Source: Hormiphora californensis
Taxonomy: Eukaryota; Animalia; Ctenophora
Assembly: GCA_020137815.1 (NCBI GenBank)
Contig: CM035359.1
Span: 806,001 to 869,992 of the forward strand
Length of the DNA: 63,992 bases
Direction of reading: 5' to 3'
Shown in pieces: positions 56,845-63,800 of the stretch. Below the pieces are notes generated by a model. The model searched no databases and was not told where the DNA came from. It saw only the letters and a list, made by a program, of their open reading frames with translations. The position numbers were made by a program, and so were the translations under genes. Numbering within the stretch: the first letter of the stretch is position 1; each line of letters begins with the position of its first letter.

Positions 56845-59800
56845 AAAATTCTCAGACTTCTTCCAGATGGTAAATTGCAAGTGAAAGCTCTGCACATTGG
56901 CAACAACACAACATGCAGTAGTTGTGGCAAAATCGACAATGTATTGTACAAAACCTTGAGTGAAAAGGTCGAAGAACAAGCATTAGATTGCAAGGAACCA
57001 ATGGAAGATCACGAAAAACAGATCGAGGAGAGAGAGAAATGGAGCGGAAAGAGGAGAAGTGAACGAGCGAAGAGAGAGAGAAGAAGGAAGGAAGCCAGAG
57101 AGGGAGAGAGCGGACGAGAGAGAGAAGGAAGAAGCAGAGAGAGAAGAAGAGCAGAGCAGAGAGAGAGAGAGAGAAGGAGAGCGGGCGAGAGAGAGAGAGC
57201 AGGAGAGAAGACGCAGAGAGTAGGAGGAGCGAGAGAGACGAGAGCAGAGAGTGGGAGCGCACAGATAGCAGATGATAGAACGAGGAGGGAGCGACGAGAA
57301 GGTAGATCTCTCTCTCTCTCTCTCTCTCTCTCTCTCTCTCTCTCTCTCTCTCTCTCTCTCTCTCTCTCTCTCTCTCTCTCTCTCTCTCTCTCTCTCTCTC
57401 TCTCTCTCTCTCTCTCTCTCTCTCTCTCTCTCTCTCTCAGATGTAATAAGTACGGTCGGGGACATGACGGATTCTGTGCAAGAAACTTCGACGGAACCGC
57501 CAAGACTATGGAGCCCTATGGTATGAAGCAATGTCTGAACCAGCTAAGCTCACGTACTAGTATTTCTGACATTGCCGTGGACAACGACGGCAATACATCC
57601 AAAGCCATAAAGGTATTACATTATGATGGACCATTCAAATATGACGTCCAAGGGTAGAGGAAGGGGTAGGGAATATCACCTATTACCTAAGGGATTAGTG
57701 GTTAGGTTATGTAAAATGGTTCTAGAGGTTAAAAAATGTTGAAAAGTGAACTACTTTAGTTATGCTACTTTTTCTTTATCAGTGTATGTTTCAATATTCA
57801 CAGGAGGTCTTACCAACTGTCCGAATAATAAAGGACAAAAACCATACCAAAAAGAATTTGACGGGAAAGGTAATTGCTATTTGGGGCCCATCATCTTCAC
57901 TGGCACGCGAATACTTCAAGAAGAAAATAAACAACGCTTTCGAGGGCGACCATGCACATGACCATGTCTGGCTCAGTCAGTATTTCAAGGTGTGTATAAA
58001 GTATGGAAGTGAACACCCACTCTTTGTTATCGAAATTATTGACATCCTTGTAGCGGTTACTGCTGTTGTTTTAACAGAATTTTTCTTACCATAGGCACTT
58101 GTGCCTCATGCGGGAGGAGATCACAGCAATTGTACAAGAGGCTGTGAGGGTGGCGCCAAAAAACCTTGGTTCTCGCATATGAGGGCTGATAAACTGGAGA
58201 AAATTACAACTCTTCTCAATGACATCGCACTTTATACACCTTCTCTGGTGGAAATGAAGTCTACAAGTCAAGTAAAATACCTGCTTTCCATATCGTGATC
58301 GTTTTAAATTTTTTTTGACGAAAATTCGTTAACAAATAAAACATTTTCCTGTTATCCTAATTCTTGCTATTTCAATTATAGGTAGAGAGTGTCCACAAAG
58401 ATATCTCTAAACGGACGGGGCACAAACACAATACTTATAGCACAAATCTACAATCTCGGGTAAATCTGGGGGTTTCAGTCAGGAATGACGGATTGCAGAG
58501 AACTCTGGCAAACTTTCATAAACAACTTCAAATTCCTCCGCTCCCTGAGAAAGCCATCGCTAGAATAGGTAAAACTCTTTTTCTGATAGTTTCCCAATCC
58601 TATCGATAGCTCTATCTATTGGATTATAATTCACATATTTATTTCCGGTTTTACATCAGGTAAAAAAAGGTCTCTGTCAAAAACCGATCCCAGAGAACAG
58701 TACATACGGAAGGCGAAGAAACTAAAAACTGCCAGTCTTTATGCTGACATGCACAAAATGGCAGGATATGACCATGCAGTTGGTCTATCCACCGCTGACA
58801 TGATCCAACCCGACACCCCTGCCCTGACGAGACAGAACACTGTCATTATATATGATTTAGAGACAGGTGGACTTGACAGAACGTCAGATATTTTGCAGGT
58901 AATTAGCAAAGATGACCTTGTACTAAATCGCAACTTTGGTTTGTAAAGCTTTTCATCGCATTTTTTCAGATTGGAGCGATTGAGATGGATATGAGATCCC
59001 ACACGGTACTAAGAACTTACAGTAAATACATCTTACCTACAAGGCCAATACCTCCAAGTGCCAGTGATGTCAACAACCTCTATGAAGTGGAAGGGAAGTT
59101 ATGGAAAAGGTCGGGAGGATCTCTTGTTCCCTTGGTAGCAATGCCTCTACGAATTGTTCTACCGGATTTTTTCAGTTGGGTCTTTTCTACACCAGATAGA
59201 CAGGTTTTGATGGTGGGCTACAATAACAGTTCCTTCGATAACCACGTCCTGCAGTATCATAGCTCGGTTTTAGATGCACCTGCACTTGATGAGGTAAGGA
59301 GATATATCTTCTTTAGTGATGTGATGGTTACCTTAGGCGTCCGCGAATCACTTCAAAAGTTGTTGGAAAGGGCGAATCTCCAGATCAATGCCGCCCTTCA
59401 CGATGCCCTGGAAGACTGCAAAGCTGTAGGTGTTGTCATGCAGCACAGGAAGGTCACCATGGCTAACTTATTGACGACAGTTGAGAGTTTCGAGTCTCTT
59501 CGCTGTCGTAAAAACAATCCACTGCTGAGGGCAGGGCTGGTAACCCCGGCCTTAGCAAATAAGATGACTAGTTTCATGACATGTGAAAGTTACTTACAAC
59601 TAAGTAGCGTGCAAGTAGTTGAGTGGCTTTTACAACTAGGGGCTACTAAGAGACAGATCGACTCGTGCCTAGAGAAAAGATCCGATTACGTAACTGTTAT
59701 GCAATAATAATAGTAATGATAGGAATTTGAATATTTTCAGTGTCTGTTTTTTGTGGTTTGGAGTTTGAAAAATGTTTTATTTGAAATTTTTACACACTTT

Positions 59801-60845: not shown

Positions 60846-63800
60846 TTAATAGGCGATCATCGCCTATATTTCTCTCAACATTCATCATTTCATCGCCGCG
60901 AATGCCGCGATGAATTTTGAGTGAAATATATCTATTGGGCATATAATTTGGCATAACATGATTCATGATTCATGTTTTAATTTGTACAACAACACACATC
61001 ATAAATCACAATAACTTTGGGATTAAAAAAGAAGGTGAACGACCATAAAAAAAAACATTGTTTGGGCACATCGTAGAAAGCATGGCGACCTGAAATGATG
61101 AATGTTGAGAGAAATATAGGCGATGATCGCCTATTAAATGCCTATTCGTTTTCCTGGCTAAACACATTTGCATTTTCATTGCTTTTTTTCCTTTTGCATT
61201 CCTCGGAATTAGTTCACAATTATACTATCCCTATGAGCTGCCTTTTTCCCTGTAAAATTACCGTGGTAAAACCGCATCAGCTGTATTCCACAGGCAAAGG
61301 CATGGTACGTGTACAATTTTATTATACTTGTCAGGCGCTCGTTGACCACTGTTGTACAGAATGAAGTTTTACATATAGTGTATGAAATATGCTGTATAAA
61401 GCCATTCTGTTTTGTTAATAACACGCGTACAATGAATTCTATTCGTTGAAACAGCATTATATGGCGGGTTTTATCACCACGCAATTCATTAGCTTCCACA
61501 TACTGTCTTTGTATAATATGCACATATGTATATACGCTGCTTTGGCGCTAGGCGATGAGTATAAACAAAAGTACGCATAATAAATTTCTTTCATTTCTCC
61601 CGCTCGATATATTTCCATGAGTATTATAATTCCAACATACTCACACGTCATCTTTTCACAATTTAGCTGATTATTAGTAAAATATACTCACTACTATACT
61701 GTGCAGCTTCACAAAAGATTAAGCAGGAGCAGCACCCTGTCATGGTAGCTGGGTTATGAACCCCCCCCCTGCTGTCGCTGATATTTCCCGCAGTCTACTG
61801 TGGTATATCAGATAATTCCCTCTATATTATCGTGGGTGGTGATTCATTACAGACACGTGTTCCTCACACAGCTTTGCGTGAACCTGGGAACCCCAGCTCT
61901 TACTTGAGAGTCGAGACTCATAGGTATATTATGTTGTTCCTCAAGGCAGCTCTTACTTGAGAAGCTCTGTGTGTTCATTGTTCCTTGCACTGCTCACAGC
62001 TTTGAACCCCGGCAGCTCTTACTAGAGACGACAGTAATGAAATTGGAGTTACTACAGCTGTGAAAACTTGGTTATTCTCATTAAAATATTCTACTTGTTC
62101 TTTTTCTTTGTAAAGTATGACCTCTGTCGCCTCTTGGTATCGAAGGCACCTTCCCGGCAAGGGAGGGGTAACTTCGTTACCAATGTCGCCTCTGTTTATA
62201 TTAGTTTGTGAAAACTGGAAATAGAATGATCTCTGAAGGCACATCAATTGTCTATCCTTTAGTTTTTTTGTGTTTGGGCATTTATGGCTCTCCATTTTTT
62301 TATTGTATTTTGAGATCTATTTTAGCTGCGATGACTCGATCTCACATGTTTCATGGGAATTCTACAGTTGACAGGATAAACGTTTTGTTTCCTGTTAGAA
62401 ATCATAACAAGATAAGAAATATTACATATTATTGCGTAATAATAAATCCCAAACAATATTAGCTGTCATTCGGCTATTTCAATACGGCTCTCCAATGCAA
62501 TGTAGAAAGAGCTGTTCTTCAAACTAGGAAACTCTAGGAATCTTTAGTTCCCTTTAAGGAAACTCTAGTTCCCTTTAACTGGTTTAAGGAAAACCTATAT
62601 CCCTCTGCATGGAAACCTATATCCCTCTGGAAACTCTAGTTCCCTTTAACCCTTTGGAGACGATTGGGTCACAGGTGACCCAATACTTTGAACCCGTTTA
62701 GCGTCTTTCTAGACCACGTTTGAAAGTTTTAAATTGTTTCCAGGGTTGAAATATACATTTTTCTACCATTTTGAGGTCGTTTTGAGCCTCTGAAGTCGTC
62801 GAATTCGGAAAACAGGGCTAAAACAGTGCATTTGGTAGGCAAAATGTGTAGTTTAATGGCCATATCTCAAAATTGGTACGAGTATGCTTAAAATGGACTT
62901 GGAAAATGCAAGAAAAGTGTATATTTTACTCCGGGGTAAAGTTTCAGGGTGATATTGCAAATTTTGTGCCTCTCAGAGGCCTTCAAAGTGCTGGGTCACC
63001 TGTGACCCAATCGTCCCCTAACGCTAAAACAGAAATTTGCATTTTACGAGCATTTCTAAAGGAATGGCCGCCGATAAAAGTCCAAAACGGCATTTTTTAA
63101 ACAGGTGCTAGCGACTAACCGACTCCATCATTGTTATCTCAACATCCAAGGGAGCCGATAAAAAATTTTTTGAGATCCGTGCTCCTTCAGAAAATTTTTC
63201 ATCTCGGCAAATTTTGAAATTCTAAAATCGGCTACAGATGAGATAGAGAGGTCCATAGGGTGTGCAAAATGTGCAGAACGGCCGGGTTTATATAAGTGTT
63301 ATGAAGAAACATAGGGCCTAAAATGAACGTTTTTCGAGTTATGGGGCAAAATAGCTGCGAAATCTCAATTCCTGTTTTAGCGTTAGAGGACGATTGGGTC
63401 ACAGGTGACCCAATAGAAATACAGGTGGTAGAACCAAAATTCCTTTTCCTACATTTAAGTAGGTTCAAAGTAAGTGTCTCCAGAAAGTTTTAGAGAATTC
63501 TGTCGACAGGGGGCTTATCGTCCCCAAAGGGTTAAAACCTATATCCCTCTGGAAACTCTAGTTCCAGCTCGGGAAAACCTATATCCCTCTGGAAACTCTA
63601 GTTCCCTTTAGTTTAAGGAAAACCTATATCCCTCTGGAAACTCTAGTTCCCTAGTGGGAAAAAGACACCATCCCTCTGGAAACTCTAGTTCCCTTTAAAA
63701 CCTATGTCCCTCTGGAAACTCTAGTTCCCTTTAAAACCTATGTCCCTCTGGAAACTCTAGTTCCCTTTAACTCTAGTTCCCTTTAAGGAAAACCTATCCC

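What the first reader, a model, noticed from the sequence alone, without database searches (positions are those of the whole stretch)
56845..60849. Intron-containing Kolobok-type transposase fused to an intact DEDDh (TREX1/PML-like) exonuclease
Seen: six exons from 57441 to 59707 splice in phase without stops into one protein. It has a DDE-type core (CARNFDGTAKTMEP, VDNDG, DKNH, H..GDHSNC, SQVES) followed by all DEDDh residues (YDLETGGL; GYNNSSFD; HDALED) and a short helical tail. The element ends in GTACCC|TTAA. Known: TTAA TSDs with purine-purine termini define Kolobok, and some Kolobok groups carry accessory nucleases, so a DEDD-bearing group may already be catalogued. Inference: the exonuclease may trim excision ends or donor sites. 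Alternatively, by analogy to TREX1 and PML-type exonucleases, it may destroy cDNA of competing retroelements, which would make it a TE-versus-TE weapon in a retroelement-rich genome.
Basis: partly seen in the sequence, partly recalled or inferred. Interest (0 to 1): 0.78.

Follow-up and report, generated by a model that had tools for sequence, protein, structure and literature searches.

The report
Partial KolobokD transposon with intact exonuclease
This is the rear part of an already named kind of jumping gene (KolobokD) whose cutting enzyme is predicted to be spliced to an exonuclease that likely trims DNA ends during jumps, so it is ordinary apart from sitting on a divergent branch.

Summary
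Six exons (57441-59707) join through five GT-AG introns into a stop-free 565-aa frame. It aligns collinearly (E 6e-51) with a profile of transposase-exonuclease fusions from other animals and keeps the second D, the DxxH signature, the last E and all five DEDDh residues. GTACCC|TTAA (60845|60846-49) behaves as a transposon end. The kind is already named: KolobokD (Kojima and Bao 2022, PMC9587614), whose authors also noted the TREX likeness and proposed 3' degradation of transposition intermediates. The front of the transposase (first D) and the left end are not in the window; an assembly gap lies at 56745-56844. Additions: the tail is predicted to be SAM-like, giving an EXO-SAM unit as in PML-1 and Exuperantia but with catalytic residues intact; the exonuclease sits in a long-branched subgroup with krill genes; differences between copies are mostly synonymous. 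The weapon-against-retroelements idea is untested and has no support here. No transcript evidence was found. Interest is low.

The parts
57302..57440 (+). Probable 3' part of the intron before exon 1: (TC)66 tract (57307-57438) ending in acceptor AG. The upstream exon was not identified.
   Evidence: the GT at 57302 is out of phase with the open frame 56848-57300, whose only in-phase GT is at 56946
57441..57612 (+). Exon 1 (of those seen): end of the CCHC finger (C-x6-H-x3-C), NxxGxxKxME motif, second catalytic D (57580-82)
   Evidence: Pfam PF20700 positions 206-261, E 2.1e-4
57804..57989 (+). Exon 2: DxxH signature (D 57834-36, H 57843-45). An alternative acceptor at 57807 differs by one codon.
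58095..58271 (+). Exon 3: H-x4-H-x2-C-x3-C zinc finger between the DxxH signature and the last catalytic residue
58382..58568 (+). Exon 4: last catalytic E (58385-87) and C-terminal part of the transposase
   Evidence: krill P0065 aligns from here to the end, 35% over 366 columns
58660..58898 (+). Exon 5: basic linker and Exo I motif (D 58854-56, E 58860-62)
   Evidence: krill model P0064 ends at the same residue as this exon
58970..59707 (+). Exon 6: rest of the DEDDh exonuclease (D 59237-39, H 59399-401, D 59414-16), predicted SAM-like tail (about 59510-59704), stop
   Evidence: PF00929 E 2.4e-8; model pLDDT 87; fold matches; profile match
59708..60845 (+). Right subterminal region with a duplicated segment (60111-60338 vs 60440-60667, 77%), ending in GTACCC; AATAAA at 59843 and 59967
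   Evidence: the last 120 bp carry very high contig depth
60846..60849 (.). TTAA target site at the right end (its left partner is not in the window)
   Evidence: contigs of runs X5 and X6 leave the window at 60849-60851 into unlike flanks
25950..26796 (.). Complete 847-bp non-autonomous Kolobok-type element flanked by TTAA on both sides (25946-49, 26797-800), with 14-bp terminal inverted repeats (13 of 14 match); its left 340 bp is 71% identical to the right end of the coding element. A possible client of a related transposase.
   Evidence: local alignment score 271 vs maximum 39 in 200 shuffles
56745..56844 (.). Assembly gap (100 N) upstream; the 5' part of the element may lie in or beyond it

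Best explanation
This is the 3' part of a KolobokD-type DNA transposon: six exons are predicted to splice into one protein in which a Kolobok DDE transposase is joined to a DEDDh 3'-5' exonuclease with a likely SAM-like tail, and the exonuclease likely trims free 3' DNA ends made during the element's own cut-and-paste cycle. Shown here: the frame, the motifs, the homology to known fusions, the TTAA-abutting right end and its sharing with short non-autonomous elements. Inferred: the transposase binds the GGGTAC-type termini, excises the element or its short derivatives and inserts them at TTAA; the tethered nuclease, held on DNA by the basic linker and the SAM-like tail, shortens 3' overhangs or spacer bases at the donor flanks or on the excised intermediate. 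Identity as KolobokD-type is about 0.9 likely; the end-trimming role about 0.55. Whether this copy is complete and active cannot be told, because its 5' part is missing from the window.
For: KolobokD is defined as Kolobok plus DEDDh (PMC9587614). The spliced protein aligns in one stretch over transposase, linker, exonuclease and start of the tail with 36 fused homologues (164.8 bits, E 1.4e-52; 169.3 bits with the 57804 acceptor). It matches 26 of 35 invariant columns of 33 such proteins, including all DxxH, last-E and DEDDh columns. Of those 33, which I picked as full-length from 69 hits, 33 match PF20700 and PML_C and 31 match RNase_T. Named ones come from bivalves, wasps and an acorn worm, overlapping the published range. 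Krill gene models join the same exon 4-5-6 equivalents. Folds: Exuperantia Z 17.4 (rmsd 2.0, 171 aligned), Plex9.1 Z 16.9 (2.1, 156), TREX1 Z 15.2 (2.7, 168). End: in-window TTAA-flanked sister element; contigs leave at 60849-51 into unlike flanks in two runs of one sample (X5 5+1, X6 4+4); a 448-bp internal deletion copy exists in X6. Listed coding differences in contigs of this element are 7 synonymous of 8 (P 0.0002-0.003; 9 of 14, P 0.0009-0.02, if six rows from diverged contigs are included). Precedent for an integrase-fused DEDDh trimmer: Cas1-Cas2/DEDDh (PMC10284694 abstract). KolobokP excisions lose 1-5 flanking bp (PMC9587614), though that lineage lacks this nuclease.
Against: No left end, no paired target duplication and no first catalytic D for this copy. 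Coding contigs are single per run, so the autonomous element is low-copy, which a domesticated gene would also give. The exonuclease is well separated from the 21 fused homologues in the tree (branch 0.9, SH-aLRT 99; quick, unrooted tree), and its tail does not hit PML_C in Pfam. Placement inside the published KolobokD clade was not tested. No nuclease assay exists for any KolobokD protein in the papers read, and flank loss in KolobokP shows that trimming can happen without a DEDDh. The variant table showed only 40 of 86 rows.
Confidence: 0.8

Rival explanations
1. TE-versus-TE weapon: the exonuclease-SAM unit, fused or as a separate isoform, suppresses LINEs that compete for or disrupt the same genome, as Plex9, gar PML and TREX1 do for their hosts.
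For: The closest solved relatives are Plex9-type enzymes (profile of fused homologues: 9l8b E 8.7e-61, 9mrd 1.5e-51, against TREX1 5e-9 or weaker), and these suppress L1 and L2 in cells (PMC10123124 section 25). The window holds a 1317-codon LINE frame. Krill model P0065 starts after the last catalytic E, so a nuclease-only product is conceivable.
Against: Nothing in the sequence points to it. The domain is tethered to a transposase, whereas Plex9 and TREX1 act from the cytoplasm or ER. L1 suppression by these proteins does not need catalysis, so the intact active site does not argue for this role. The coding element appears low-copy.
Confidence: 0.1
2. Domesticated host gene derived from KolobokD: fixed, spliced and under purifying selection, with a leftover terminus.
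For: Five introns, unbroken frame, synonymous excess, one coding contig per run.
Against: The terminus and TTAA are intact and shared with many short elements. A 448-bp deletion copy that removes the last catalytic E exists in run X6. The neighbourhood is repeats only. Active transposon lineages also show synonymous excess between copies (own knowledge).
Confidence: 0.08
3. A separate Kolobok lineage that captured a DEDDh-SAM nuclease independently of published KolobokD.
For: Long, supported branch for this exonuclease with 12 relatives (krill and unnamed records), apart from the mollusc and insect fusions; only 21-27% identity to them; G(Y/F)NN in place of their AHN motif.
Against: Collinear homology over transposase, linker, nuclease and tail (probability 99.6%, 210 columns). 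Same domain order. By eye, the transposase motifs resemble oyster and coral Kolobok rows of the published alignment. One capture followed by divergence is simpler.
Confidence: 0.1
4. The exonuclease is a separate host gene lying next to a transposase fragment.
For: No RNA was available to show junctions 4 and 5 directly.
Against: Many database proteins hold both domains in one chain, the alignment runs through the junctions, krill models join them, and the nuclease lies inside the terminus.
Confidence: 0.02

Closest known systems
KolobokD lineage of the Kolobok superfamily (Kojima and Bao, Mob DNA 2022, PMC9587614; seen: passages, sections 10 and 11, supplement searches, parts 104-105 of file 3; figures not visible)
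   Same: Kolobok DDE transposase with DxxH signature and zinc fingers, DEDDh nuclease resembling Exuperantia and TREX, TTAA with an RR/YY terminus; proposed role of degrading DNA intermediates from 3' ends.
   Different: Divergent subgroup (21-27% identity to mollusc and insect fusions, 35% to krill); five short introns in the part seen; the paper's text does not mention introns, the SAM-like tail or Plex9/PML in the passages read. An unverified note of this scan calls the host a comb jelly, a phylum the paper does not list.
Plex9 and gar PML C-terminal exonucleases (PMC10123124; passages and section 25; PDB 9MRC, 9MRD)
   Same: Best sequence and fold matches in the PDB; intact DEDDh residues.
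   Different: Host genes, not fused to a transposase, cytoplasmic or ER; their L1 suppression does not need catalysis. The fish sequence in my tree groups with mollusc and insect fusions, not with this element's subgroup.
EXO-SAM pseudo-nucleases PML-1 PXL and Exuperantia (PMC13659232; passages)
   Same: Exonuclease fold followed by a SAM-like bundle.
   Different: Those are catalytically dead nucleic-acid binders; here all five DEDDh residues are present and the unit is part of a transposase.
Cas1-Cas2/DEDDh trimmer-integrase (PMC10284694; abstract only)
   Same: A DEDDh exonuclease fused to an integration machine, trimming DNA ends (fold match 8fyc Z 11.1).
   Different: Unrelated integrase, prokaryotic; a functional analogy only.
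KolobokE, KolobokP, KolobokH, Kol0 (PMC9587614)
   Same: Same transposase superfamily, each with an accessory protein.
   Different: [quoted passage not shown]

Membership tests
Kolobok superfamily | DDD/E transposase: second D, C/DxxH signature, last E | tested here: met
   D47, D68-x-x-H71 and E180 align with invariant columns of 33 homologues; PF20700 hit on exon 1
Kolobok superfamily | First catalytic D | tested here: inconclusive
   Not in the window: a 226-position N-terminal profile has best E 2.4 over six frames; an assembly gap lies upstream
Kolobok superfamily | Termini 5'-RR...YY-3' abutting TTAA | tested here: met
   Right end ends in CC then TTAA; sister element GG...CC between two TTAA; contigs part at 60849-51
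Kolobok superfamily | Paired terminal inverted repeats and TTAA duplication around this copy | tested here: inconclusive
   No left end within 3 mismatches of the 14-nt end in the window; no genome held
Kolobok superfamily | Zinc finger between the DxxH signature and the last E | tested here: met
   H-x4-H-x2-C-x3-C at 58107-58145, on invariant columns
KolobokD | Encodes a DEDDh (DnaQ) exonuclease like Exuperantia, TREX, ERI1 | tested here: met
   D306, E308, D410, H464, D469; PF00929; folds
KolobokD | CCHC finger after the first D | tested here: inconclusive
   C, H and C are present at 57442-57477; the first Cys would lie in the missing exon
KolobokD | Groups with KolobokD in the transposase phylogeny of all Kolobok lineages | not testable with these tools
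   No supplement row is labelled KolobokD, the figure is not held, Repbase is not available, and no sequences of other lineages were retrieved as usable records
Plex9 / PML host exonucleases | Stand-alone or TRIM-fused host gene syntenic with the PML locus in jawed vertebrates | tested here: not met
   Fused to a transposase inside a transposon end
Plex9 / TREX1-like restriction factors (function) | 3'-5' DNA exonuclease activity and LINE suppression | not testable with these tools
   Needs bench assays
SAM-like fold (tail) | Five-helix SAM-type bundle | tested here: inconclusive
   Model pLDDT 84; the top 17 of 50 rows are SAM-domain entries but Z is only 5.3-7.6 and Foldseek gives no E<=0.001; profile homology runs into the PML_C region

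The most novel reading that the evidence does not exclude
KolobokD transposons carry the catalytically intact, mobile form of the EXO-SAM unit that is known as a dead module in PML-1 and Exuperantia, and they were the donor of the vertebrate PML exon-9 and Plex9 exonucleases. A transposon's end-trimming nuclease would then have been turned into a host anti-retroelement factor. This element would mark a deep, intron-bearing branch of that donor family, possibly in a phylum not yet listed for it.
Probability: 0.3. Interest if true: 0.62.

Novelty: new member of a known kind. Interest (0 to 1): 0.2.

Why it matters
As an element it is ordinary: another KolobokD. Its use is modest. The exonuclease-SAM unit is unbroken and apparently under selection, so it is a ready test protein for what the KolobokD nuclease does, which no paper read here has measured. 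It also widens the family's diversity for a rooted test of whether PML and Plex9 came from these transposons. That link is absent from the two PML papers read ('Kolobok' occurs 0 times in each), and the word KolobokD occurs in one paper of the library. Repbase entries could not be checked.

Tried and rejected
No genome is held, so full-length copies could not be sought. Word-index searches for long fused relatives of exon 6 and of krill P0065 found none (weak evidence). Two metagenome scans for loci with flanks found no relatives; a first attempt failed for lack of a conserved stretch. No RNA holder listed; run X8 laid nothing. No contig of 4 runs lay on 56845-57300 (no proof of absence); that stretch is AG-rich and gave no profile match (2.2 bits for its first 75 aa), so I do not count it as an exon. 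No phage match. The Atlas search with the tail gave only scores under 0.8. Foldseek on the tail alone gave no E<=0.001. The careful tree did not finish; the quick tree of 48 rows has 23 of 45 inner branches open, no outgroup, and partial domains. No look-alike stretch in other windows of the scan. P0040 in the HMMER list is an unrelated repeat protein and was left out of all alignments. Six variant rows at 59393-59432, which appear to come from diverged deeper contigs, were left out of the 7-of-8 count and are reported in the 9-of-14 count. Searches 'Plex9+transposon+exonuclease' (0 papers), 'DEDDh+transposase+fused' (5 papers, titles unrelated) and 'Kolobok+ctenophore' (5 papers, 4 listed, listing only) gave no prior description beyond PMC9587614. 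The claim in earlier notes of an intron shared with PML was not tested.
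Full report
Observation. The region holds six coding segments between 57441 and 59707. Exons 57441-57612, 57804-57989, 58095-58271, 58382-58568, 58660-58898 and 58970-59707 give 565 residues and one terminal stop; the introns are 71-191 nt, all GT-AG. Being stop-free is not enough: 1008 of 223,080 nearby combinations are. 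But none of them retains an intron, and this model scores best of the 1008 against a profile of fused homologues (169.3 bits, median 126.8; the 57807 acceptor ranks third). A six-frame search of the whole window with a profile of 16 long homologues returns the six exons, in order, and nothing else at E<5. The splice model is therefore well supported by homology. It is not shown by RNA: no run on record as RNA holds the stretch.

Protein. Exon 1 matches the Mutator-like transposase family PF20700 (E 2.1e-4, below the curated cut-off) and exon 6 the exonuclease family PF00929 (E 2.4e-8). A HMMER search with exon 6 gave 59 hits. The best are 33-45% identical single-exon frames from unnamed records. 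P0015 and its cluster member P0065 are krill gene models. P0065 aligns with residues 200-559 at 35% identity, through junctions 4 and 5, and the krill model P0064 stops at the residue where intron 5 falls here. P0055 is one 639-aa frame with PF20700, exonuclease and PML_C domains. Searching with it gave 69 proteins, the named ones mostly from bivalves, with wasps, acorn worms and a coral. Of 33 that I chose as full-length, 33 match PF20700 and PML_C and 31 match RNase_T; since the query was a fusion, this shows that fusions exist, not how common they are. The spliced protein aligns to a profile of 36 of the 69 in one stretch from the CxxN motif to the start of the tail (E 1.4e-52) and matches 26 of the 35 invariant columns (two lie before its start). 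These include the second D, DxxH, the H/H/C/C finger, the last E and D306, E308, D410, H464, D469 of the DEDDh site.

Structure. The exon-6 model (pLDDT 87, 15 sequences) matches Plex9.1 first by Foldseek (E 2.6e-6), and Exuperantia (Z 17.4), Plex9.1 (Z 16.9) and TREX1 (Z 15.2) by the wide search. The tail folded alone (pLDDT 84) returns SAM-domain entries in its top 17 rows, though at Z 5.3-7.6 and with no significant Foldseek hit. Profile comparison carries the homology with the fused proteins into their PML_C region (probability 99.6%). PMC13659232 (passages) describes this EXO-SAM arrangement in PML-1 and Exuperantia, both catalytically dead, and says the SAM-like part is absent from canonical DEDDh exonucleases. 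Here it is predicted together with an intact active site.

Ends and copies. The element ends in GTACCC at 60845, followed by TTAA. The window itself holds a complete 847-bp element at 25950-26796 with TTAA on both sides and terminal repeats starting GGGTA; its left part is 71% identical to the right end studied here (score 271, shuffles at most 39). In public contigs the coding part lies on one contig per run (X1, possibly the source, covers 57441-59791 with one difference). The bin 60717-60842 carries summed depths of 129,217, 481,795 and 539,378 against 109, 46 and 303 on exon 1-3 contigs; the tool warns that this is no copy number. Contigs of X5 (5+1) and X6 (4+4), one sample, leave at 60849-60851 into unlike flanks (18 of 128 loose-end rows shown). 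X6 holds a copy lacking 448 bp that includes the last catalytic E. Of 14 listed differences on contigs of this element, 5 are intronic, 7 synonymous, 1 non-synonymous and 1 moves the stop by a codon. With 22-34% of changes expected to be synonymous, 7 of 8 has P 0.0002-0.003; adding six rows from diverged contigs gives 9 of 14, P 0.0009-0.02. Only 40 of 86 rows were shown. The picture fits a low-copy autonomous element with many short dependants. The left end is not in the window, nor is the N-terminal part with the first D. The stretch 56845-57300 follows a 100-N gap, is AG-rich, gives no profile match and has no in-phase strong donor, so I leave it unassigned.

What is known. Kojima and Bao 2022 (PMC9587614; passages, sections 10 and 11) define Kolobok by TTAA duplications and RR/YY termini, and name KolobokD as the lineage encoding a DEDDh exonuclease, found in molluscs, arthropods and cnidarians and expected to be wider. 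They note similarity to Exuperantia, TREX and ERI1, recall that TREX degrades L1 intermediates, and propose that the nuclease degrades DNA intermediates from the 3' end during transposition. Their supplement has no row labelled KolobokD (parts 104-105 of 106 read) and the tree figure is not held, so phylogenetic membership was not tested. In my quick unrooted tree of 48 exonuclease domains this element groups with 12 relatives on a long branch (SH-aLRT 99), apart from 21 fused proteins; a fish Plex9-like protein (P0045) falls among the latter. The profile of the fused proteins hits Plex9-type PDB chains at 1e-50 to 1e-60, Exuperantia at 5e-19 and TREX1 at 5e-9 or weaker. Seven earlier notes of this scan report the same kind in other genomes, read after I had found the paper. 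One note on another piece of this genome calls it a comb jelly; I did not test that.

Mechanism. Shown: gene anatomy, conserved sites, terminus. Inferred: cut-and-paste from GGGTAC-type ends into TTAA (family knowledge, PMC9587614), with the tethered nuclease trimming 3' ends at donor flanks or on the excised intermediate. Reasons are the fusion itself, the kept active site, and the precedent of the Cas1-Cas2/DEDDh trimmer-integrase (PMC10284694, abstract). KolobokP excisions lose 1-5 flanking bases without a DEDDh, which shows both that ragged ends occur in this superfamily and that this nuclease is not needed for them. I put the trimming role at about 0.55. Domestication (0.08), an independent capture (0.1) and a separate gene (0.02) are the other rivals.

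Verdict. A real feature and a new, divergent member of a known kind. Interest 0.2. The boldest open reading, that KolobokD gave vertebrates the PML/Plex9 nuclease, has probability about 0.3; this copy is not on the branch nearest Plex9, so it helps to root that test but is not its best witness.

Noticed in passing
window 6568-10521 (-): 1317-codon open frame with endonuclease- and reverse-transcriptase-like motifs by eye, preceded by a 48-bp tandem array: an apparently unbroken LINE frame.
   Followed up: no
window 25946-26800: Complete non-autonomous Kolobok-type element between two TTAA, with an internal inverted repeat, related to the right end of the coding element.
   Followed up: partly
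window about 60846-61138: Short element with 47-bp inverted arms directly abutting the Kolobok end and sharing its TTAA; it can also be read as a TA-duplicating insertion into that TTAA.
   Followed up: partly
window 62646-63535: piggyBac-like short element: TTAA then CCC...GGG then TTAA, inserted in a 37-bp satellite.
   Followed up: no
window 13711-15339 and 49839-51425: Two elements with long terminal inverted repeats (337 and 265 bp, 99%), flanked by 8-bp and 9-bp direct repeats.
   Followed up: no
window 52086-54706 and 60943-63990: Duplicated segment of about 2.6-3 kb, 79-94% identical, on both sides of the Kolobok locus.
   Followed up: no
window 55304-56057 and 56121-56744: A 750-bp imperfect palindrome and a 51-bp G/C-rich tandem array that runs into the assembly gap.
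   Followed up: no
window 59331-59456 (read laying): Deeper, diverged contigs in runs X5 and X6 lie on the region of the last exonuclease motif, suggesting related DEDDh-bearing families or fragments in the same sample.
   Followed up: no
window 24514-25491 (-): 325-codon frame with a coiled-coil stretch, resembling a LINE ORF1 by eye.
   Followed up: no
P0045, P0051: Proteins with two tandem Plex9-like exonuclease domains, one from a fish and one from an unnamed record.
   Followed up: no
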